The translations under genes were made by a program, and so were the position numbers. A stretch of 35,476 bases of DNA from an uncultured Candidatus Saccharibacteria bacterium (GTDB taxonomy: Bacteria; Patescibacteriota; Minisyncoccia; UBA6257; 2-01-FULL-56-20): contig CAYTEE010000002.1 of assembly GCA_964436785.1 (NCBI GenBank), positions 1 through 35,476 of the forward strand, given 5' to 3'. Under the pieces are notes generated by a model. That model saw only the letters and a program-made list of their open reading frames with translations, made no database searches and was not told where the DNA came from. Shown piece after piece: positions 4,281 through 31,739 of the stretch. Position 1 is the first letter of the stretch, and every line of letters begins with the position of its first letter.

Positions 4281-4695
4281 GAAGCTTAAGGCAAAGGCGA
4301 AAAGCGCCCGAAAGATCACCTCGAAGCTTGCCCCTCATCTTGAGCCGGGGAACGTGGTGCAAGTTCGGCTTATTGAACAAAAAGGCCTTCAGGTGGTGGA
4401 TGCCCTGAAGCGCGGAACCATCGATACTCCTCTCGCAACGCTCCATTTTTTGAATGAATTGCTCCCGGAAGGGGAGCCGGAAAAAATGCTGTGGAATGCG
4501 CTTATCTCGGAGAAATTTCTTTGGGAAGAAACGCTCGCCATTTTGGGATGGGATCCGCGGGGAGCATCCTGCGCAAAATGCGGCGCGAATGCTCCTTCTG
4601 TTTTCGATATCCGCGGGCAGGAATTTTTCTGCCGCCTGTGCGGGGCGGGCCTCCCCCTCGCGCGCGCGATACGCCTTGCGGGTTTTTTGGCATAG
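4189..4695 (+). CDS. recO: DNA repair protein RecO (short form, GTG start)
   Basis: The N-terminal OB-fold-like segment is typical of RecO (EAIVL...DL.V.FSIFTKKFGKLKA.AKS). A C-terminal zinc motif is present: CAKCG...FFCRLCG. Confidence 0.75.
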   Translation: MQEYLSEAIVLDKEPNGDLDVRFSIFTKKFGKLKAKAKSARKITSKLAPHLEPGNVVQVRLIEQKGLQVVDALKRGTIDTPLATLHFLNELLPEGEPEKMLWNALISEKFLWEETLAILGWDPRGASCAKCGANAPSVFDIRGQEFFCRLCGAGLPLARAIRLAGFLA

Positions 4696-4746
4696 CGCCG
4701 ATTCATAAAACAGCCACACGTGCATATTTGAGGTAGAACTCTATCC

Positions 4747-4812
4747 ATCCTCCTTCGCGCAAGGCTACGGGAGGATACCTTCCTCCGCTCGCTTTCGCTC
4801 GCGGAGGAAGGT
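4747..4812 (+). terminator. Two GC-rich hairpins downstream of recO (no U-tract)
   Basis: ATCCTCC/GGAGGAT (4747-4753 with 4770-4776), and a perfect 12-bp stem ACCTTCCTCCGC/GCGGAGGAAGGT (4777-4788 with 4801-4812). Confidence 0.35.
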
Positions 4813-4843
4813 AAAATAAGATATAATATAAAGAAGAAAACAT

Positions 4844-4984
4844 ATGGGTCCCTCACCTTTGAAGGATAATAGTCGGTCCGAAGCCAAAGCGGGACGATTG
4901 ACGTGGTTTATGAATAATAGTCGATTATTAAACAATAAAATAAGGATTTGCGAACGCTTCGCAATCCTTCAAGGGTGAGGGATG
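4844..4984 (+). promoter_or_regulatory. Start-codon-abutting inverted-repeat element, copy A
   Basis: Left arm CCCTCACCTTTGAAGGAT (4850-4867) pairs with right arm ATCCTTCAAGGGTGAGGG (4964-4981) around a 96-nt interior. The ATG of the downstream gene follows immediately at 4982, and ATGGGT flanks both ends. Confidence 0.7.
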
Positions 4985-6763
4985 GGTGAGCGCATAGAAA
5001 GTTTCGGATTCGAAAAACCGGCGGTGCCGGCGGAAGAGCCGAGGAGGCCCTCAAAAATAAAATGGCTTATCGTTCTTTTTTCGGTTTTTCTCGTCGGGGG
5101 TTCCCTCGCGCTTTTTTTTCTCCTTGGGAGAGAATCGAATCCGCATATCGCGGGAGTCGAGTTTAAGAAGCCGGATTCGGTGCTCATCGGAGAGCCGTTC
5201 GTGGTGAGCGTCTCCGTGACAAATCCGTCCAATCAGATATTGCAGGACGCCCGCCTTATTTTGAATCTTCCCGTGGGCGTATCGCTCGTCGGCCAGCAGG
5301 AAACTTTGCGCACCGTCGAGCGGATGATCGGGGACATAACGCCGGGAAGCTTGACGCCGAACACATTTAATTTGATCGCCCTTGGAGACAATCTTTCGCT
5401 CGCGCGGCTTTCGGCAACTTTGGAATACCGAGTCTCCGGTTCCAAGGTGGAATATTCGGAGAAATCCGAAGTTGACGTGGCATTAAGCCAGCCGGCGATC
5501 TCTCTTGATATGGAGGGGCCATCCAGCGTTCTTTCTTCGGAGAGTTTTGACATATTGCTCCGGTATAAAAATAATTCCGCACAACCATTCGACGGGTTGC
5601 GCCTCAAAGTAACATACCCCGCGGCATTTAAGGCCGGGAAAACCGAGCCGGCGCCACAGATGCCGAATATATGGAGCCTCGAAAATCTCGCGCGAGGAGC
5701 AAGCGCGGAAATAAAGATATCCGGCGCCGTCACCGGATCTGAGGGGCAGTATTTCCCGATAAAGGCGGAAATACTCGGCAAGGTTCAGGGGAAAGAATAC
5801 GCGCTTGTCACAAAGACGCTTACGGTCGGCGTTCAGTCGTCTCCGCTCGCGCTCGCCGTATTTGTGAACGGCAAAAGCGACTATATCGCGCGGCGCGGAG
5901 AACAGCTTTCATACGAGATCAAATACAAAAATAATTCCGATACCGCGTTCGAGAACATAACCGTAACCGCGAAATTGATCGGTGAGATGTTTAATTTTTC
6001 TTCGATCATGGAAAATCTGCCGTTCAACTCGCTTACCAATACCCTTACGTGGACCTCGGCGAACATGCCGGAACTTGCCCTGCTCTCTCCGGGCGAGGAA
6101 GGCATGATACGATTTATGTTCCGGACGAAGGATTCATTCCCGATATCCCGGATCGGAGACAAGAATTATCTCCTTAAGGTGAGCGCGCAGATCGAATCCC
6201 CGACGGTTCCGTCCGGAACGCCGGTGTCGCGGACTATCTCGGTCGCAAAGAGCGAAAATAAAGTGTACGGGGAACTCGGCATTGACGCGCGCGCCTTCTT
6301 CTGGGATGCCGCCTCGGGCATCGCGAACACCGGGCCGTTCCCGCCTAAGGTGGGTCAGCCGACGCAATATACGATCCATTGGGTCGTAAAAAGCATGGCA
6401 GCGGACTTTAGCGGGGTTACCGTGACGGGGTTCCTTCAGCCCGGAATCCGTTGGACGGGAAAGGTGAAAAGTTCCGTTGCCGCCGTTCCGTCCTACGACC
6501 CAAATTCCGGAAAAGTAACATGGCTTATCGATCATTTGCAGGCAAACCGAGGCATAGTGGGCGACCCGGTTGAGGCTATTTTCCAAGTTTCGGCGACGCC
6601 CTCCACAAACCAGGTCGGGCGTGATATAACGCTTCTTGAAGAGACAAAACTTGAAGGCAGAGACGATTTTACGGGTTTTGCGTTTAGCGCCACCGACCAA
6701 GGGGTGACCACCAGGCTTCCCGACGATCCGAATGCGCCGGTCGGCACGGGGGTTCAGCCATAG
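4982..6763 (+). CDS. Membrane-anchored surface protein with repeated CARDB/DUF11-like beta-sandwich modules
   Basis: N-terminal TM segment (WLIVLFSVFLVGGSLALFFLL). Recurring module signature: GEPFVVSVSVTNPSN, SFDILLRYKNNSAQPFDGLRLKVTYP, GEQLSYEIKYKNNSDTAFENITVTAKL, QYTIHWVVKS...GVTVTGFL. Confidence 0.7.
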   Translation: MGERIESFGFEKPAVPAEEPRRPSKIKWLIVLFSVFLVGGSLALFFLLGRESNPHIAGVEFKKPDSVLIGEPFVVSVSVTNPSNQILQDARLILNLPVGVSLVGQQETLRTVERMIGDITPGSLTPNTFNLIALGDNLSLARLSATLEYRVSGSKVEYSEKSEVDVALSQPAISLDMEGPSSVLSSESFDILLRYKNNSAQPFDGLRLKVTYPAAFKAGKTEPAPQMPNIWSLENLARGASAEIKISGAVTGSEGQYFPIKAEILGKVQGKEYALVTKTLTVGVQSSPLALAVFVNGKSDYIARRGEQLSYEIKYKNNSDTAFENITVTAKLIGEMFNFSSIMENLPFNSLTNTLTWTSANMPELALLSPGEEGMIRFMFRTKDSFPISRIGDKNYLLKVSAQIESPTVPSGTPVSRTISVAKSENKVYGELGIDARAFFWDAASGIANTGPFPPKVGQPTQYTIHWVVKSMAADFSGVTVTGFLQPGIRWTGKVKSSVAAVPSYDPNSGKVTWLIDHLQANRGIVGDPVEAIFQVSATPSTNQVGRDITLLEETKLEGRDDFTGFAFSATDQGVTTRLPDDPNAPVGTGVQP

Positions 6764-6840
6764 ATAGCAAGTAGGCGGTAGGAAGTAGGAAAAAATAGAA
6801 AGTAGCAAGTAGTGAGTAGGTAGTAGATAAATAGAAAAAA
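6761..6840 (+). repeat. GTAG-type degenerate heptanucleotide tract starting at the stop codon
   Basis: I count 12 TAG triplets in 80 nt, mostly 7 nt apart (6765, 6772, 6779, 6786; 6796, 6803, 6810, 6817, 6824), covering all three frames. It shares GTAGGCGGTAG and AGTAGCAAGTAG with 14831..14902. Confidence 0.8.
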
Positions 6841-6865: not shown

Positions 6866-6975
6866 ATGGATCCCTCACCTTTCCCGGGTGCAGTAATGCA
6901 GTTTTTGGTATATGTTATAGTCAGAAGCTATTGATGAATAATATGGAACAAAGTCCGCCGAAAGGTGATGGGATG
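6866..6975 (+). promoter_or_regulatory. Start-codon-abutting inverted-repeat element, copy B (degenerate)
   Basis: Left ATGGAT-CCCTCACCTTTC (6866-6883) and right GAAAGGTGATGGG (6960-6972) followed by ATGGAA. The helix is 14 bp with one bulged T, around a 76-nt interior. Confidence 0.55.
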
Positions 6976-14245: not shown

Positions 14246-14273
14246 TTTGATTTTTGATTTTTAAATTTTGATT
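14246..14273 (+). repeat. TTTGATT-type heptamer tract (TTTGATT TTTGATT TTTAAAT TTTGATT)
   Basis: Read directly from the sequence. The same unit recurs at 30521..30541. Confidence 0.7.
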
Positions 14274-14281
14274 TAAACACA

Positions 14282-14833: not shown

Positions 14834-14902
14834 GCGGTAGATAGTAGCGAGTAGAGAGTAGAAAAAAATAGTAAGTAGGCTGTAGCAAGTAGAAAGTAGA
14901 AA
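14831..14902 (+). repeat. GTAG-type degenerate heptanucleotide tract starting at the frr stop codon
   Basis: I count 11 TAG triplets in 72 nt, spaced mostly 7 nt apart (14852, 14859; 14869, 14876, 14883, 14890, 14897). Confidence 0.8.
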
Positions 14903-14934
14903 GAAAAAGCCGCTCGGGGGTTGCCCAAGCGGCT
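14903..14934 (-). terminator. Rho-independent terminator for the minus-strand small membrane protein gene
   Basis: Stem AGCCGC/GCGGCT (14908-14913 with 14929-14934). The A-run on the plus strand at 14903-14907 gives a U-tract on the minus strand. Confidence 0.55.
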
Positions 14935-23478: not shown

Positions 23479-23621
23479 ATGGATCCCTCACCCTTGTGCG
23501 ATCACGCATACATAGAATACAAATTATTATGAAAAAAGTTTTATATTCCACTTTTATGGATGAGGCTAATAGGCCGCCAGCTATAGTCGCGGAGCGACAA
23601 ATCGCACAAGGGTGAGGGATG
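23479..23621 (+). promoter_or_regulatory. Start-codon-abutting inverted-repeat element, copy C (best copy)
   Basis: A perfect 20-bp helix, 23483-23502 with 23601-23620, includes the A and T of the murE ATG (23619). The interior is 98 nt. The left end is ATGGAT-CCCTCACC and the right end is GGTGAGGG-ATG. Confidence 0.75.
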
Positions 23622-26071: not shown

Positions 26072-26623
26072 ATGAAATTGCCTGGAGATTATATTGCTGG
26101 TTTCGTCGATGGTGAGGGGTGTTTTGCCCTAAAATTCAGACGCGACATTAAGCTTAATAGGAAAAATACTCCTGTATATTTTTATTGGGATATTGAATTT
26201 GCAATTATGCTTCGCGAAGACGACAAAGAAATTCTTGAGAGTATTAAAGAGACTATTGGATGTGGGAGAATTAGTACTAGTAAAAGAGGCTCTGTAAGGT
26301 ATTCGGTGAATCATGTTGGTGATCTTATTGATAAAATAGTGCCATTTTTCGAACTATATCCACTTCATGCAAAAAAGCTGTTCGATTTTGAATTATGGAG
26401 AGAAGCGGTAGAAATTATTAAGAGGAATCAACGAATAAAAATAAATGCAGAAATTGGGAAAGATGGTTTTCAAAGAACAGTTTATAAACCAAGAGATATA
26501 GGGAGATTAAAGGAAATTCACGAGCAGATGAAGCAATTTAAGGGTCGTACTCATGAATGGAAGTGGCTAATGGATAAGCACAGAGAATCATGTGACGTAA
26601 AAGAAACAATGGGCGACATATAG
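26072..26623 (+). CDS. LAGLIDADG-family homing endonuclease (single-motif type), free-standing
   Basis: YIAGFVDGEGCF motif near the N-terminus, 183 aa, markedly AT-rich compared with its flanks. Confidence 0.85.
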   Translation: MKLPGDYIAGFVDGEGCFALKFRRDIKLNRKNTPVYFYWDIEFAIMLREDDKEILESIKETIGCGRISTSKRGSVRYSVNHVGDLIDKIVPFFELYPLHAKKLFDFELWREAVEIIKRNQRIKINAEIGKDGFQRTVYKPRDIGRLKEIHEQMKQFKGRTHEWKWLMDKHRESCDVKETMGDI

Positions 26624-26653: not shown

Positions 26654-28078
26654 ATGAGAAGCACGCAATCAGCCCGCAAAAAACTCCACGCCCACTTTAT
26701 TGGTATCGGCGGGATCGGCATAAGCGCCCTTGCGCGCTGGTTTTTAGCTAAAAATTGGGCTGTTTCGGGCTCCGATATAGCGGGGAGCTCAGTTACTCAA
26801 GAACTCGAGAAAGAGGGCGTAAAGGTCAAAATTGGGCATAAAAAGGGTGGTCCTGCCTGCCGGCAGGCAGGTCTCCCCTCCCGGGTGGATATGGTGGTAT
26901 TTAGCGAGGCGATAGAGCCCCAAAACCCCGAACTTATAGAGGCAAAACGGCGGGGAATCGTACCGCTTTCATATCCCCAGGCCCTTGGGTGCCTTACTAA
27001 GGCATATAAGACGCTTGCGGTTACCGGAAGCCACGGGAAGAGCACCACGACCGCAATGCTCGCCCTCATTCTTATCCGCGCCGGTTTCGATCCGAATGTC
27101 GTCATAGGAACGAAGCTCAAGGAGTTCGGCGGGAAAAATTTCCGTTCGGGCAAAAGCAAATTGTTGGTGCTCGAAGCGGACGATTACAAAGCTGTTTTTT
27201 TGAACTACTCCCCTGCCGCGATAATCGCGACCACGCTCGACCGCGAACACCTTGATGTATACAAGAACCTTGGGAACATAAAAAAAGCGTTTTTGAAATT
27301 TTTTGCGAAAATAAAAAATGGCGGAGCGCTCGTGGTAAACCGCGACGATAAAAACCTCCGCTCCCTCCACTCCCCTATCGCGCGCCTCGCAAAACGCAAT
27401 TCGCTCCGCGTCCTCTGGTATTCGCTAAAAAGCCCGGAAGCGAAACAGATACGGAACGTTCTTAAAATTCCGGGGGAGCATAATGTTTCAAATGCGATTG
27501 CCGCGTACACTCTCGCGACGAAGATATTAAACATAAAAAAACAGGATGCCCTAAAAGCGCTCGCCGGTTATCGCGGAGCGTGGCGCCGGATGGAATTCCG
27601 CGGCTACTACTCCCTACCGCCTACTCCCTACCGCCTACCCGTCTACGACGACTATGCCCATCATCCCACGGAAATAAAAGCAACACTTGAGGCGTTCAAG
27701 GAAAAATTCCCGAAAAGGAAGATAATCTGTGTGTATCAGCCGCACCAGGGCGAGCGCCTGAAGGCGCTTTACCCCGAATTCATCCATTCATTCCACGATG
27801 CCGATACTCTCATTCTCCTTCCGGTTTACGAAGTTGCCGGGCGCGATACGAGATATAAAACTTGGACTTCGGAGCGCCTTGCCGCATCCATTAAAAAACG
27901 ATACCCCAAAAAAGAGGTTTATTATATTTCAAACCCAGAACGAATTAAAGAATTTTTGCGCTCCCACCTCCCACCTCCCACCTACTACCTACTACCTATC
28001 CTCATAATGATGGGCGCGGGCGACATAGCAAACTATACACCGCTTCTTTTAGACAAAAAGAGGAAGCGCGCAGTATAA
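26654..28078 (+). CDS. murC: UDP-N-acetylmuramate--L-alanine ligase
   Basis: HFIGIGGIGISALA, GSHGKSTTTAML, DDYAHHPTEIKATL, and the C-terminal MMGAGDI. Confidence 0.92.
   Translation: MRSTQSARKKLHAHFIGIGGIGISALARWFLAKNWAVSGSDIAGSSVTQELEKEGVKVKIGHKKGGPACRQAGLPSRVDMVVFSEAIEPQNPELIEAKRRGIVPLSYPQALGCLTKAYKTLAVTGSHGKSTTTAMLALILIRAGFDPNVVIGTKLKEFGGKNFRSGKSKLLVLEADDYKAVFLNYSPAAIIATTLDREHLDVYKNLGNIKKAFLKFFAKIKNGGALVVNRDDKNLRSLHSPIARLAKRNSLRVLWYSLKSPEAKQIRNVLKIPGEHNVSNAIAAYTLATKILNIKKQDALKALAGYRGAWRRMEFRGYYSLPPTPYRLPVYDDYAHHPTEIKATLEAFKEKFPKRKIICVYQPHQGERLKALYPEFIHSFHDADTLILLPVYEVAGRDTRYKTWTSERLAASIKKRYPKKEVYYISNPERIKEFLRSHLPPPTYYLLPILIMMGAGDIANYTPLLLDKKRKRAV
26852..26871. repeat. Perfect 20-bp palindrome CCTGCCTGCCGGCAGGCAGG in frame inside murC (encodes PACRQAG)
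   Basis: Read directly from the sequence. It lies in a loop that is about 8 residues longer than the E. coli MurC segment as I recall it (HRPENVRDASVVVV). Confidence 0.75.
27611..27638 (-). repeat. Antisense GTAG-type repeat inside murC (TCCCTACCGCCTAC x2)
   Basis: The reverse complement GTAGGCGGTAGGGA is 13/14 identical to GTAGGCGGTAGGAA at 6771-6784. It encodes YSLPPTPYRLP. Confidence 0.7.
27964..27998 (-). repeat. Antisense heptamer tract inside murC (CACCTCC CACCTCC CACCTAC TACCTAC TACCTAT)
   Basis: Five 7-nt units. The reverse complement contains GTAGGTAGTAGGTAGTAGG (compare GTAGGTAGTAG at 6816-6826). It encodes HLPPPTYYLLPI. Confidence 0.7.
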
Positions 28079-30363: not shown

Positions 30364-30519
30364 TTATTCCGCCGAATTTTTCTCTATCACGATCGGCGCG
30401 TGATTGAATTCGCGATTCGCGAGATAACCCAGGCCGAAGCTTAGCGTCGCAACAAGAAAAATAATCAGCGTGAAAATAATTTCCCTCTTATGCGCCACTG
30501 CATAATCTCTAATTTTCAT
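30364..30519 (-). CDS. Small single-pass membrane protein (51 aa), hypothetical
   Basis: Not in the ORF track because it is under 60 aa. Translates to MKIRDYAVAHKREIIFTLIIFLVATLSFGLGYLANREFNHAPIVIEKNSAE*. Its stop lies 1 nt before the ddl start codon. Confidence 0.45.
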   Translation of the reverse strand: MKIRDYAVAHKREIIFTLIIFLVATLSFGLGYLANREFNHAPIVIEKNSAE

Positions 30520-30520
30520 T

Positions 30521-30541
30521 TTTGATATTTGATTTTTGATC
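30521..30541 (+). repeat. TTTGATT-type heptamer tract (TTTGATA TTTGATT TTTGATC)
   Basis: Read directly from the sequence. Same unit as 14246..14273. Confidence 0.65.
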
Positions 30542-30547
30542 TATTCT

Positions 30548-31270
30548 CTAAAACTGCAGGTATTTCTCCCACTTTTCGTATAGCGCGCTCGTCGCCCGCA
30601 GGTCCCCGACATTATATTTTGCTATCTCAAGATACTTTTTCTTCTTGAAAAGTGGCGCAACATCATCGCCCGTCACGCCGCCCGCCTTTGGGCTCTCGAT
30701 GCCGAACGCCCGCGACCACAAGTGCAAACTTCCTTTCTTCCGGCTCGCACCATAGAACGTAAGCTGTTCCAGGAGGTCGATGTGGAGCGCCTCCGGATTA
30801 TGCTGATATAAATAGCGCCCGCGCATCAAGTCCTTCGTGGGACGGATGCCCTTTATCGCCGAGCGGATCATCAAAAACGGCACGTCAAAACTCCTTCCAT
30901 TGAACGTAATGAACACCTGATAATGCCGCGCCGCTTCCCAGAATTTTCGGAGCATTTCCTCTTCGTCCATTGGTTTGAACGAAACCCCCTCTTCTTTGGT
31001 TTCGGTGAGCTTCGATCCGGGCGCCTGGAAATATACCGCCCCTTCGTTTTTGTGGTAATCGAGCATTCCTATCGCGACGATCTCGCCCGTCAAGGGAGAA
31101 AATCCAAGGCCGCTCTTCAGGTCTTCGAGCGCCATTTTGTAGTCCTCCTCATCTATAGAATCGCGCTTGATCCAGCGGGTAAGATTTTCCTGCGTTGCCC
31201 TATCGAGAGAATCAAAGTTCTCTCCTATTGTTTCAATATCGAAAACAAGTTTTTGGGTGGCGATTGACAT
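30548..31270 (-). CDS. Predicted 3'-5' exonuclease, RNase H-like fold (PolB-exonuclease-related)
   Basis: LVFDIETIG (Exo I DxE), ITFNGRSFDVPFL (Exo II) and YNVGDLRAT (Exo III YxxxD). Confidence 0.7.
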   Translation of the reverse strand: MSIATQKLVFDIETIGENFDSLDRATQENLTRWIKRDSIDEEDYKMALEDLKSGLGFSPLTGEIVAIGMLDYHKNEGAVYFQAPGSKLTETKEEGVSFKPMDEEEMLRKFWEAARHYQVFITFNGRSFDVPFLMIRSAIKGIRPTKDLMRGRYLYQHNPEALHIDLLEQLTFYGASRKKGSLHLWSRAFGIESPKAGGVTGDDVAPLFKKKKYLEIAKYNVGDLRATSALYEKWEKYLQF

Positions 31271-31299
31271 ATTGGTCCATTATAGAATAGAATTGACCC

Positions 31300-31395
31300 G
31301 CTGGACAGCAGATCGGAACTGGCTTTGAGATGGGTCCTCCAAGACCAACCTCTACCTCCTTCATCTGCAATCTGCTGTCCAGCACCACTTTTTTT
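31300..31395 (+). terminator. Orphan long hairpin followed by T7 run (possible 3' end of a small plus-strand transcript)
   Basis: GCTGGACAGCAG (31300-31311) pairs perfectly with CTGCTGTCCAGC (31372-31383). The T-run is at 31389-31395. There is no plus-strand gene upstream. Confidence 0.4.
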
Positions 31396-31410
31396 ATTTA
31401 TAACAAAGGA

Positions 31411-31558
31411 ATGGCATCCCGTCCCCAATTTTGCCGATACTTTCACGGCGACGCACGCCGTAGGCGGTCCTATTCGGACACTGCGTCGCTCCGAAGATGT
31501 ATGCCGTTTGGTGATTCTGGGTTTTTACTTCAAGAGAAGGCAAAATTGGAGAGGGATG
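31411..31558 (+). promoter_or_regulatory. Start-codon-abutting inverted-repeat element, copy E (degenerate, followed by a decoy L27 start)
   Basis: Left ATGGCAT-CCCGTCCCC-AATTTTGCC (31411-31435) and right GGCAAAATT-GGAGAGGG-ATGGCAT (31539-31562), around a 103-nt interior. The ATG at 31556 opens only MAFSS*. Confidence 0.6.
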
Positions 31559-31601
31559 GCATTTTCTAGTTAAATTTTTTCGCTATCGCTCTAAAATTTA
31601 A

Positions 31602-31739
31602 ATCCCTCACCCAAAAAGGATAAACAATTTTATCGAAGCCAAAGCATTACCCAAACAACTATGATTCAGGCAAAAATCAAGGTCAAAAAATATAACAAGG
31701 ACTTGCGGGGGCTTCGCAATCCTTTTTAGGTGAGGGATG
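31602..31739 (+). promoter_or_regulatory. Start-codon-abutting inverted-repeat element, copy D (rpmA leader)
   Basis: Left arm CCCTCACCCAAAAAGGAT (31604-31621) and right arm ATCCTTTTTAGGTGAGGG (31719-31736), 19/20 paired when the AT of the ATG is included. The interior is 97 nt, and the true L27 ATG is at 31737. Confidence 0.75.

What the first reader, a model, noticed from the sequence alone, without database searches (positions are those of the whole stretch)
4844..4984. Copy A: element-spanning 44-codon ORF in frame with the host gene, ATGGGT duplicated at both ends, and a competing local hairpin shared with copy D
The hexamer ATGGGT occurs immediately left of the left arm (4844-4849) and immediately right of the right arm (4982-4987, the first two codons M-G of the surface protein). 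This looks like a target-site duplication or a decoy start. From the left ATG the reading frame stays open through the whole element: MGPSPLKDNSRSEAKAGRLTWFMNNSRLLNNKIRICERFAILQG. It stops only at the TGA inside GGTGAGGG (4976-4978), one codon before and in frame with the real ATG. Copies A and D also share interior motifs that the other copies lack. One is CGAAGCCAAAGC near the 5' side (4880-4891 and 31634-31645). The other is GCTTCGCAATCCTT at the 3' side, whose GCTTCG can pair with the CGAAGC. Both copies also have a local hairpin that competes with the long-range helix for the inner half of the right arm: A has AAGGATTTGCGAA/TTCGCAATCCTT and D has AAGGACTTGCG/CGCAATCCTT. Two mutually exclusive folds, one of which frees GGTGAGGGAUG, are what a riboregulator expression platform looks like.
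Basis: seen in the sequence. Interest (0 to 1): 0.65.

Follow-up and report, generated by a model that had tools for sequence, protein, structure and literature searches.

The report
Start-codon hairpin mobile element, CPR bacteria
Copy A is one of four copies in this window of a roughly 135-base palindromic, probably mobile element that is widespread in Patescibacteria (CPR) and sits exactly against gene start codons, hiding the start in a 20-bp hairpin; it is not a leader-peptide gene or a ligand-sensing riboswitch.

Summary
ATGGGT flanks the element, a 44-codon ORF spans it and ends at the TGA in GGTGAGGG, and A and D share interior motifs and a local hairpin.

- **Family.** The element has more than 130 distinct copies in Patescibacteria. 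A 20-bp helix (ATCCCTCACC plus 10 covarying bp) encloses about 95 nt. The right arm always abuts the ATG of a real gene. [quoted passage not shown] Interior orientation is fixed relative to the gene.
- **Insertion.** Orthologous junctions in relatives are empty. For copy B, the empty site shows that the left ATG is the ancestral start, duplicated on insertion (ATGGA). Copy A fits the same pattern (ATGGG); the sixth base, T, belongs to the element.
- **ORF.** The spanning ORF is chance. Only 2 of 21 such uORFs reach the TGA.
- **Local hairpin.** It is kept in all 11 members of A's subfamily, but it is weak (-12 versus -53 kcal/mol).
- **Shine-Dalgarno (SD) role.** This is doubtful. Genes in the window lack SD sequences, a sister family has arms that are not SD-like, and some related 16S genes lack the anti-SD.

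The best reading is a MITE/MIRU-like start-codon element whose hairpin is opened by ribosomes arriving from upstream. I found no Rfam family or paper describing it.

The parts
4822..4827 (+). TATAAT, a -10-like box 16 nt upstream of the left ATG; probably the native promoter of the surface-protein gene
   Evidence: Other genes in the window have TATAAT 7-16 nt before their ATG and no SD. The consensus scan found no full sigma-70 match.
4844..4848 (+). Left copy of the direct repeat ATGGG; inferred ancestral start codon, now a decoy or uORF start
   Evidence: By analogy with copy B, whose left ATGGA matches the start of empty orthologous sites.
4848..4867 (+). Left arm of copy A (GTCCCTCACC + TTTGAAGGAT), the 5' strand of the 20-bp helix
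4868..4963 (+). A-rich interior of copy A. It includes CGAAGCCAAAGC (4879-4890) and the 5' strand of the local hairpin (4942-4954).
4942..4969 (+). Local hairpin AAGGATTTGCGAA / TTCGCAATCCTT, which competes with the left arm for ATCCTT (4964-4969)
   Evidence: -12.2 kcal/mol. Conserved in 11 of 11 subfamily members.
4964..4983 (+). Right arm of copy A (ATCCTTCAAG + GGTGAGGGAT). Its last two bases are the AT of the start codon.
4844..4978 (+). 44-codon uORF spanning the element; judged non-coding, an open frame by chance
   Evidence: 2 of 21 family uORFs reach the TGA.
4982..6763 (+). Downstream gene, a 593-aa DUF11/CLIPPER-type surface protein. ATGGG at 4982-4986 is the right copy of the direct repeat.
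6870..6974 (+). Copy B, shorter (ATCCCTCACCTTTC ... GAAAGGTGATGGGAT). Left repeat ATGGA at 6866-6870. The GlyRS start is ATG 6973-6975.
23483..23620 (+). Copy C, a perfect 20-bp arm pair, upstream of a Mur ligase (ATG 23619). The left flank is TAATAATGG.
   Evidence: (I13).
31602..31738 (+). Copy D upstream of L27 (ATG 31737). It has no left ATG and belongs to the same subfamily as A.
   Evidence: (I19, D6).

Best explanation
Copy A belongs to a large family of non-coding palindromic insertion elements of about 135 nt in Patescibacteria. The family resembles MITEs and, in where it lands, mycobacterial MIRUs, and it resides at gene start codons.

**Anatomy (shown).** A 20-bp helix is made of an outer 10 bp, ATCCCTCACC/GGTGAGGGAT, and an inner 10 bp that covaries between copies. 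It closes an A-rich interior of about 95 nt whose orientation is fixed relative to the gene. The last AT of the right arm plus the next G form the gene's ATG.

**Origin of copy A (inferred).** The element was inserted just after the first bases of the surface-protein gene and duplicated ATGGG. The left ATG, which lies behind its native TATAAT and short leader, is therefore the old start. The right ATG is the working start.

**Mechanism (inferred).** In the mRNA, the helix buries the working AUG. The AUG is exposed only when a ribosome occupies or unwinds the left arm. In most family members that ribosome is terminating at the upstream gene's stop codon, which abuts the arm. In copies A, B and C it is translating the junk uORF that starts at the duplicated AUG. 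This is translational coupling by RNA unfolding. While the left arm is held, the local hairpin can take up the inner right arm and so help keep the AUG single-stranded.

The element therefore does little harm where upstream translation reaches it, which would explain where copies survive.
For: - **Family and anatomy.** Scans of genome and metagenome collections gave 129-131 unique copies, mostly in Patescibacteria. The helix is exactly 20 bp. Positions 11-20 are 86-98% Watson-Crick with several pair types each, and positions 21-24 are 11-25% paired.
- **Position.** In 84 of 131 copies the in-frame stop of a long upstream ORF overlaps the arm (TAA|T 74, TAG 6, TGA 4), and an ATG of a long ORF follows the right arm. 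This also holds in the scan that did not require ATG.
- **Orientation.** A>T in 110 of 129 interiors, the 3' interior is the more structured half in 114 of 129, AAGGTC occurs 36 times in sense and 0 in antisense, and similar interiors pair forward 37:0.
- **Gain and loss.** RecO-surface protein-GlyRS synteny is conserved in four relatives with gaps of 2-106 nt and 6-28 nt and no element. Many other orthologous junctions are empty.
- **Duplication.** The empty sites L240 and L239 read TTG|ATGGAAAAAATTGT. Window copy B reads TTTGATGGA-T[element]-ATGGAAAAAATAGT.
- **Sister family.** It carries ATGA on both sides in 11 of 11 copies.
- **Copy similarity.** Copies within one genome are near-identical, whereas copies in different genomes differ in the interior.
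- **Folding.** A folds at -53.3, B -37.1, C -56.5 and D -44.7 kcal/mol, with the AUG paired.
- **Established mechanism.** The RNA-unfolding model of coupling is established, and MIRUs that 'insert themselves at start codons' are documented (PMC12548453).
Against: - Copy D has no ORF ending at or entering its left arm, yet it precedes the essential L27 gene.
- Mismatches in the 20-bp helix show no sense-strand G.U excess (23 G.U versus 31 A.C). The helix may therefore be kept by a DNA-level process or by youth rather than by RNA selection.
- The stop codon abuts the arm exactly, rather than within a range. That is sharper than a ribosome-footprint filter alone predicts, and it points to insertion specificity that I could not define.
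- The majority class has no target duplication, and direct-repeat lengths vary (1 to 6 nt depending on where the element boundary is drawn).
- No autonomous element with the same ends turned up in the held loci.
- With the left arm blocked, A's predicted fold still pairs the AUG.
- The invariance of the outer 10 bp is partly an artefact of my exact-match search patterns.
- No expression data are available.
Confidence: 0.5

Rival explanations
1. RNA punctuation. The 20-bp helix is a substrate for RNase III or another endonuclease. Cleavage separates cistrons and leaves the downstream mRNA with a very short leader or none, which would suit a lineage that seems to start translation without an SD.
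For: - The helix is exactly 20 bp in all copies, the minimal length for RNase III by general knowledge.
- The stop and the start sit exactly at its two bases.
- Genes in the window lack SD sequences and have TATAAT 7-16 nt from the ATG.
- Some related 16S genes lack CCTCC.
- Copy D lies behind a 5' region of about 435 nt with no delivering ORF.
- Correia elements in Neisseria are hairpin MITEs cleaved by RNase III (PMC2649163).
Against: - RNase III cuts within stems, not at their base. The freed 10-nt outer strands could stay paired.
- There are no cleavage data.
- This reading does not explain the duplicated ATG or the fixed interior polarity any better than the main explanation does.
Confidence: 0.15
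2. A purely selfish or neutral MITE with no RNA-level role. Its placement reflects transposase target choice near ATG plus removal of harmful insertions. The local hairpin and interior motifs are transposase-binding or structural remnants.
For: - Symmetric decay of the arms, G.U about equal to A.C.
- Near-identical copies within a genome.
- Empty orthologous sites.
- Several families share the terminal ATCCC/GGGAT and the same site preference but have different cores.
- Weak covariation in the local hairpin.
Against: - The fixed orientation relative to the gene, despite symmetric ends, needs strand-specific selection or strand-specific insertion.
- A 20-bp hairpin over an essential gene's AUG must be dealt with somehow by the cell.
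- No transposase partner was found.
Confidence: 0.2
3. One reading: a cis riboregulator whose two folds switch in response to a signal (ligand, temperature or a trans factor) to free GGUGAGGGAUG.
For: Alternative pairings exist and are kept in the A/D subfamily. One-sided changes in the local hairpin are often G.U.
Against: - No conserved aptamer-like core and no Rfam hit.
- The downstream genes are unrelated in function.
- Other subfamilies, such as copy C, have a 3' hairpin that does not touch the arm.
- The energy gap is about 40 kcal/mol in favour of the closed form.
- The SD role is doubtful.
Confidence: 0.04
4. A DNA-level element: a cruciform or protein-binding palindrome, for example an invertible segment or a replication or recombination site.
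For: Perfect 20-bp inverted repeats and no strand bias in mismatches.
Against: - Interior orientation is never inverted relative to the gene (37:0; AAGGTC 36:0), so inversion is not occurring.
- The exact abutment to stop and start codons points to translation, not to DNA transactions.
- No recombinase genes are nearby in the window.
Confidence: 0.04

Closest known systems
Mycobacterial interspersed repetitive units (MIRUs)
   Same: Both are apparently mobile repeats that sit at start codons inside operons in the same orientation as the genes. In both, translation entering from upstream is thought to keep the downstream gene expressed (PMC12548453).
   Different: MIRUs are tandem direct repeats of 40-100 bp that carry a small ORF overlapping the gene start by 4 nt. 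These elements are single palindromic units with a 20-bp closing helix, and their uORFs, when present, end at arbitrary places.
Bacterial MITEs with hairpin transcripts: Correia/CREE (Neisseria), ERIC/IRU (enterobacteria), RUP (pneumococcus)
   Same: Both are 100-160 bp, have terminal inverted repeats, are non-coding and multi-copy, vary in presence between relatives, are co-transcribed with neighbouring genes and form a long mRNA hairpin (PMC2649163).
   Different: Correia elements insert at TA with a TA duplication, lie at varied distances from genes and in both orientations, and carry promoters and IHF sites. Here the right end is fused to the ATG, the left end to a stop codon or to a duplicated ATG, and orientation is fixed. 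No sigma-70 consensus lies inside A, C or D.
Translational coupling by RNA unfolding (phage f1 VII-IX, MS2 coat-lysis, E. coli rpmI-rplT)
   Same: The start of the downstream cistron is buried in a hairpin whose 5' strand is reached by ribosomes finishing the upstream cistron (PMC12548453).
   Different: Those are single, locus-specific structures. Here one portable cassette imposes the same architecture on dozens of unrelated gene junctions.
Intercistronic RNase III sites of phage T7 early mRNA
   Same: Hairpins of about 20 bp lie between cistrons of a polycistronic RNA.
   Different: Cleavage is not shown here. The T7 sites are not repeats of a mobile element and do not abut stop and start codons exactly. 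This comparison rests on my own knowledge and was not tested.

Membership tests
Bacterial MITE | Terminal inverted repeats enclosing a short non-coding interior | tested here: met
   20-bp arms, an interior of about 95 nt and no conserved ORF.
Bacterial MITE | Many dispersed copies per genome; copies within a genome more alike than copies between genomes | tested here: met
   Four copies in 35 kb of this window. Several copies per contig in Jorgensenbacteria, Harrisonbacteria and Saccharibacteria MAGs. L088, L076 and L020 copies are near-identical.
Bacterial MITE | Presence/absence differences at orthologous sites | tested here: met
   The RecO-surface protein and surface protein-GlyRS junctions are empty in L237-L240, and the L27 junction is empty in L041.
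Bacterial MITE | Target-site duplication of fixed length | tested here: inconclusive
   Direct repeats of 4-6 nt (ATGNN) occur in about 11-14 copies and in 11 of 11 sister-family copies. The 64% majority, which abuts a stop codon, shows at most a shared A/AT.
Bacterial MITE | A cognate autonomous element (transposase gene between the same ends) | tested here: not met
   No arm pair 250-5000 bp apart enclosing a gene in about 240 held loci; only two variants of about 295 nt. The sample is limited, and whole genomes were not searched.
MIRU-like start-codon repeat | Insertion at the start codon of a gene, co-oriented with it | tested here: met
MIRU-like start-codon repeat | Internal ORF whose stop overlaps the gene's start (-4 spacing) | tested here: not met
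   uORFs end after 1-47 codons. Only 2 of 21 end at the TGA 3 nt before the ATG.
Riboswitch / ligand-sensing riboregulator | Conserved sensor (aptamer) core and a functionally coherent set of regulated genes | tested here: not met
   The interior varies between genomes, Rfam gives no match, and the downstream genes are unrelated.
Riboswitch / ligand-sensing riboregulator | Mutually exclusive folds of an expression platform | tested here: inconclusive
   The local hairpin is present in 11 of 11 subfamily members, but covariation is no better than in shuffles (129/500), and it is absent in copy-C-type subfamilies. In a swap test, 56% of copies paired the inner arm with their own interior, against 36% with a swapped interior.
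Leader-peptide (attenuation-type) control | Conserved leader ORF | tested here: not met
Translational coupling by RNA unfolding | Start codon sequestered in a helix whose 5' strand is reached by upstream translation | tested here: met
   Predicted folds. Stop codons abut the arm in 84 of 131 copies. The uORF enters the arm in A, B and C. Copy D is an exception.
Translational coupling by RNA unfolding | Downstream translation depends on upstream translation | not testable with these tools
   Needs reporters, Ribo-seq or toeprinting.
RNase III processing site | About 20 bp or more of dsRNA, and cleavage in vivo or in vitro | not testable with these tools
   Stem length is met. Cleavage is unknown.

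The most novel reading that the evidence does not exclude
In Patescibacteria that have largely given up SD-anti-SD initiation, these hairpin cassettes may act as genuine operon punctuation. The helix would hold the upstream stop codon and the downstream AUG side by side, so that a terminating ribosome is handed across a 130-nt insert (a bacterial counterpart of ribosome shunting). Alternatively, the helix may be excised to create leaderless cistrons, as tRNAs punctuate mitochondrial transcripts. The element would then be a domesticated, portable translation-reinitiation device rather than a tolerated parasite.
Probability: 0.12. Interest if true: 0.85.

Novelty: new variant of a known kind. 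Interest (0 to 1): 0.62.

Why it matters
Patescibacteria have tiny, gene-dense genomes, and little is known about how their genes are expressed. This repeat family wedges a stable hairpin exactly between the stop of one gene and the start of the next, in front of ribosomal-protein, tRNA-synthetase, cell-wall and ATP-synthase genes across several CPR lineages.

If tolerance depends on upstream translation, these sites are ready-made natural tests of how translational coupling and SD-independent initiation work in the group. The element also matters in practice:
- It marks true start codons. In this window, the simple ORF listing begins GlyRS at an upstream TTG (6931) instead of the ATG at 6973.
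- It creates decoy ATGs and spurious small ORFs.
- As a dispersed repeat of about 135 nt, it could plausibly break short-read assemblies.

I found no Rfam model and no paper describing it, but my literature search was limited.

Tried and rejected
- **Rfam.** Nothing at gathering thresholds for the whole window. At E up to 10 around A and D, only noise.
- **Literature.** Searches on CPR repeats, MITEs in Patescibacteria and the arm sequences found no description.
- **Leader peptide.** Rejected.
- **Promoter inside the element.** No sigma-70 consensus in A, C or D on the sense strand. The recurring AAAGGTC motif is unexplained.
- **SD/anti-SD mimicry by the arms.** First attractive, because GGUGA can pair with 16S UCACC. 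It was weakened by SD-less genes in the window, the sister family with CTAACGGG arms at the same position, and 16S 3' ends without CCTCC in L016 and L188.
- **Sense-strand G.U bias as proof of an RNA helix.** Not found.
- **A single insertion rule.** I tried AT, TA and TAA duplications, a 2-bp GR duplication and 4- or 5-bp ATGN(N) duplications. None fits both the stop-abutting majority and the ATG-duplicated minority.
- **Autonomous partner.** None in the held loci.
- **Phage carriage.** One chance match in IMG/VR, not a family member.
- **D's upstream GAGGGATGGCA as a remnant of the old start.** Rejected, because the same upstream block is present in the empty L041 locus.
- **Integron attC, REP/RAYT, IS200/IS605 ends, retron, ribozyme.** Considered from memory and not pursued. 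The defining motifs or partner genes are absent nearby.

Full report
**1. The observation.**
- ATGGGT lies at 4844 and 4982.
- A 44-codon ORF runs from 4844 to the TGA at 4976-4978, one codon before and in frame with the ATG at 4982.
- Both have a local hairpin that uses the inner half of the right arm.
- The whole element folds into a long-range helix at -53 to -55 kcal/mol (z = -6.2).

The window holds four copies:

| Copy | Coordinates | Downstream gene |
|---|---|---|
| A | 4848-4983 | surface protein |
| B | 6870-6974 | GlyRS |
| C | 23483-23620 | Mur ligase |
| D | 31602-31738 | L27 |

In each copy the last AT of the right arm plus the next G is the start codon of a real gene.

**2. The family.** Most true hits were Patescibacteria: Jorgensen-, Harrison-, Lipton-, Doudna- and Niyogibacteria, Saccharibacteria and Paceibacterota, often with several copies per contig. 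A second scan of metagenomes did not require an ATG and gave the same picture. After removing duplicates there are 129-131 copies.
- **Helix.** It is exactly 20 bp. The outer 10 bp were fixed by my search patterns, so their invariance is not evidence. Positions 11-20 are 86-98% Watson-Crick with several pair types each, and positions 21-24 are unpaired.
- **Interior.** It is about 95 nt, A-rich on the sense strand (110 of 129), with the more structured half next to the right arm (114 of 129). AAGGTC occurs 36 times in sense and never in antisense. Similar interiors always align in the same orientation relative to the gene (37:0).
- **Rfam.** No matching family.

**3. Position.** In 84 of 131 copies the in-frame stop codon of a long upstream ORF overlaps the first base of the arm (TAA|T 74, TAG 6, TGA 4), and a long ORF starts right after the right arm. 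Fifteen more have a stop triplet at that place without a long ORF. The downstream genes include many ribosomal proteins, EF-G, ATP synthase subunits, SSB, GlyRS, topoisomerase and ligase. Their N-termini align from residue 1 with orthologues that lack the element, so the right-hand ATG is the ancestral start position.

**4. Gain, loss and the flanking repeat.**
- The gene order RecO-surface protein-GlyRS-EPSP-type enzyme (EPSP_synthase fold; the following MreB gene is clear only in some relatives) is kept in four relatives whose closest surface protein is 48% identical. Their two junctions are 2-106 nt and 6-28 nt long and hold no element.
- For copy B the comparison is direct. L240 and L239 read ...TTG ATGGAAAAAATTGT. 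The window reads ...TTTG ATGGA T[element] ATGGAAAAAATAGT. The left ATG is therefore the old start with its old upstream context, and ATGGA was duplicated.
- Copy A has the same layout (ATGGG on both sides). The sixth matching base, T, is the first base of the element.
- Copy C has ATGGA against ATGAA.
- Copy D has no repeat. Its upstream block is homologous to the sequence directly before the L27 ATG in L041, which has no element.
- Family-wide, 14 of the 44 copies without an abutting long-ORF stop carry an ATG 4-6 nt before the arm. Eleven have a repeat of at least 4 nt, against 3.9 expected.
- A sister family (ATCCCGTTAG...CTAACGGGAT|G) sits at start codons in the same way and has ATGA on both sides in 11 of 11 copies. 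That TGA is usually not a real upstream stop. Further families with other cores exist.
- I could not find one insertion rule that also explains the majority class, which has no duplication beyond a shared A or AT.

**5. The spanning ORF.** Of 21 copies with a left ATG, 16 uORFs stop inside the element after 1-23 codons, 3 run into the gene out of frame, and only window A and L039 reach the TGA. ATG-to-ATG distances are spread evenly over the three frames. The 44-codon ORF in A is therefore an accident of a 138-nt spacing and an open frame.

**6. The competing hairpin.**
- In the A/D subfamily (11 sequences from several CPR lineages), the consensus fold is the 20-bp helix plus a small 3' hairpin.
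- The extended local hairpin that takes the inner right arm is paired in 87% of cells, against 34-56% when the partner is slid. It shows little covariation.
- Across the family, the inner right arm pairs with its own interior in 56% of copies, against 36% with swapped interiors.
- Copy C and many others instead have a GTCGC-GAA-GCGAC hairpin that leaves the arm alone.
- The local fold is worth about -12 kcal/mol against -45 to -56 for the closed form.
- In A, with the left arm blocked, the predicted fold pairs the right arm with itself and still covers the AUG.
- The subfamily also has crossing complementarities (GCAATTC/GAATTGC and CGAAGC/GCTTCG) that I did not resolve.

**7. Is GGTGAGGG an SD?** GGUGA could pair with 16S UCACC at a good distance from the AUG; this is my own reasoning. 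Three results argue against it:
- Almost no gene in the window has an SD, and many have TATAAT 7-16 nt before the ATG.
- The sister family has no purine-rich arm.
- Two element-bearing contigs, L016 (Saccharibacteria) and L188 (unnamed metagenome contig), have 16S 3' ends reading GGATCAATTA, without CCTCC.

I therefore treat the arm as a start-masking strand, not as a ribosome-binding site.

**8. The mechanism I commit to.**
- **Shown:** the anatomy, the position, the polarity, the empty sites and the duplication at copy B.
- **Inferred:** in the mRNA the helix hides the AUG. A ribosome that ends at the abutting stop codon, or in A, B and C translates from the duplicated old AUG into the left arm, holds or unwinds that arm and exposes the AUG to another ribosome. 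This is the RNA-unfolding model of coupling (PMC12548453). That review's account of MIRUs inserting at start codons so that an internal ORF stays coupled to the gene is the closest precedent. For copy A, TATAAT at 4822-4827 puts the old AUG close to the 5' end of the transcript, so the uORF should be translated as the gene once was.
- **Weak points:** copy D has no delivering ORF. The helix mismatches show no G.U preference. The exact abutment of stop and arm looks more like insertion specificity than like a footprint filter.

**9. Rivals.**
- Endonuclease punctuation is supported by the 20-bp stem, the SD-poor lineage and copy D.
- A purely selfish MITE is supported by the symmetric decay and within-genome homogeneity.

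None of the first three excludes the others.

**10. Known relatives and novelty.**
- It works like a MITE that forms an mRNA hairpin (Correia/ERIC type; PMC2649163), and like a MIRU in where it lands.
- It fails the MIRU definition (no tandem repeats and no -4 overlapping ORF).
- It lacks two MITE hallmarks (a fixed duplication and a known transposase).
- I file it as a new variant of a known kind. I found no prior description, but the search was limited.

**11. Verdict.** The finding is more interesting as a window onto a widespread CPR start-codon element than as a riboregulator at one gene.

Noticed in passing
window 6765-6840, 14838-14906, 27607-27637 (reverse complement); 14246-14277 and 30514-30545: Intergenic spacers are built of short tandem units of about 7 nt, each holding a stop codon (GTAG/TAG type and TTTTGA type). 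Similar stop-rich 6-8-nt tandem repeats lie just upstream of start codons in other CPR loci: L087 GTTATTA x5, L086 CATTTAA x4, and also L146, L148 and L170.
   Followed up: partly
L003, L010, L018, L032, L038, L045, L070, L089, L179 (coordinates): A sister palindromic family, ATCCCGTTAG...CTAACGGGAT|G (103-124 nt), also ends on the gene's ATG. All 11 unique copies are flanked by ATGA direct repeats, and the right arm is not SD-like. Further start-proximal hairpin families have other cores (ATGCCCAGTAG.., CCAGGTAGTG.., ATCCCCCACTC..).
   Followed up: partly
L016:11-85 (+ strand); L188: starts at position 2481 of the reverse-complemented locus (- strand hit): The 16S rRNA 3' ends read ...GTGGATCAATTA..., with no CCTCC anti-SD, in contigs that carry the element. 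L190 has the usual GGATCACCTCCTT.
   Followed up: no
window, upstream of most genes (for example 16842, 26072, 28087, and 31270 on the - strand): Almost no SD motifs. TATAAT-like boxes lie 7-16 nt before the ATG, which suggests very short leaders or leaderless mRNAs.
   Followed up: partly
window 31271-31600: A 330-nt stretch with no convincing ORF lies between a divergent gene and element D. It has an 11/12 sigma-70-like promoter at 31264-31293. Its last roughly 50 nt are conserved directly upstream of the L27 ATG in L041, which lacks the element. There is no Rfam match.
   Followed up: partly
window 26072-26623: A free-standing LAGLIDADG homing-endonuclease ORF (Pfam E = 3e-22) lies between an M23 peptidase gene and a Mur ligase gene.
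   Followed up: no
window 4745-4812: Two GC-rich hairpins (TATCCTCC.../...GGGAGGATA and CCTTCCTCCGC.../...GCGGAGGAAGG) lie between the RecO terminator (4665-4690) and the TATAAT box upstream of copy A.
   Followed up: no
window 6931 versus 6973: The longest-ORF start for GlyRS (TTG 6931) lies inside element B. Orthologue alignment and the element boundary put the real start at ATG 6973.
   Followed up: yes
window 31703-31728: In copy D the local hairpin is followed by UCCUUUUUA and scores as a sense-strand terminator-like site. In copy A the same hairpin scores as a terminator only on the antisense strand. This could help explain why reversed insertions are not seen.
   Followed up: no
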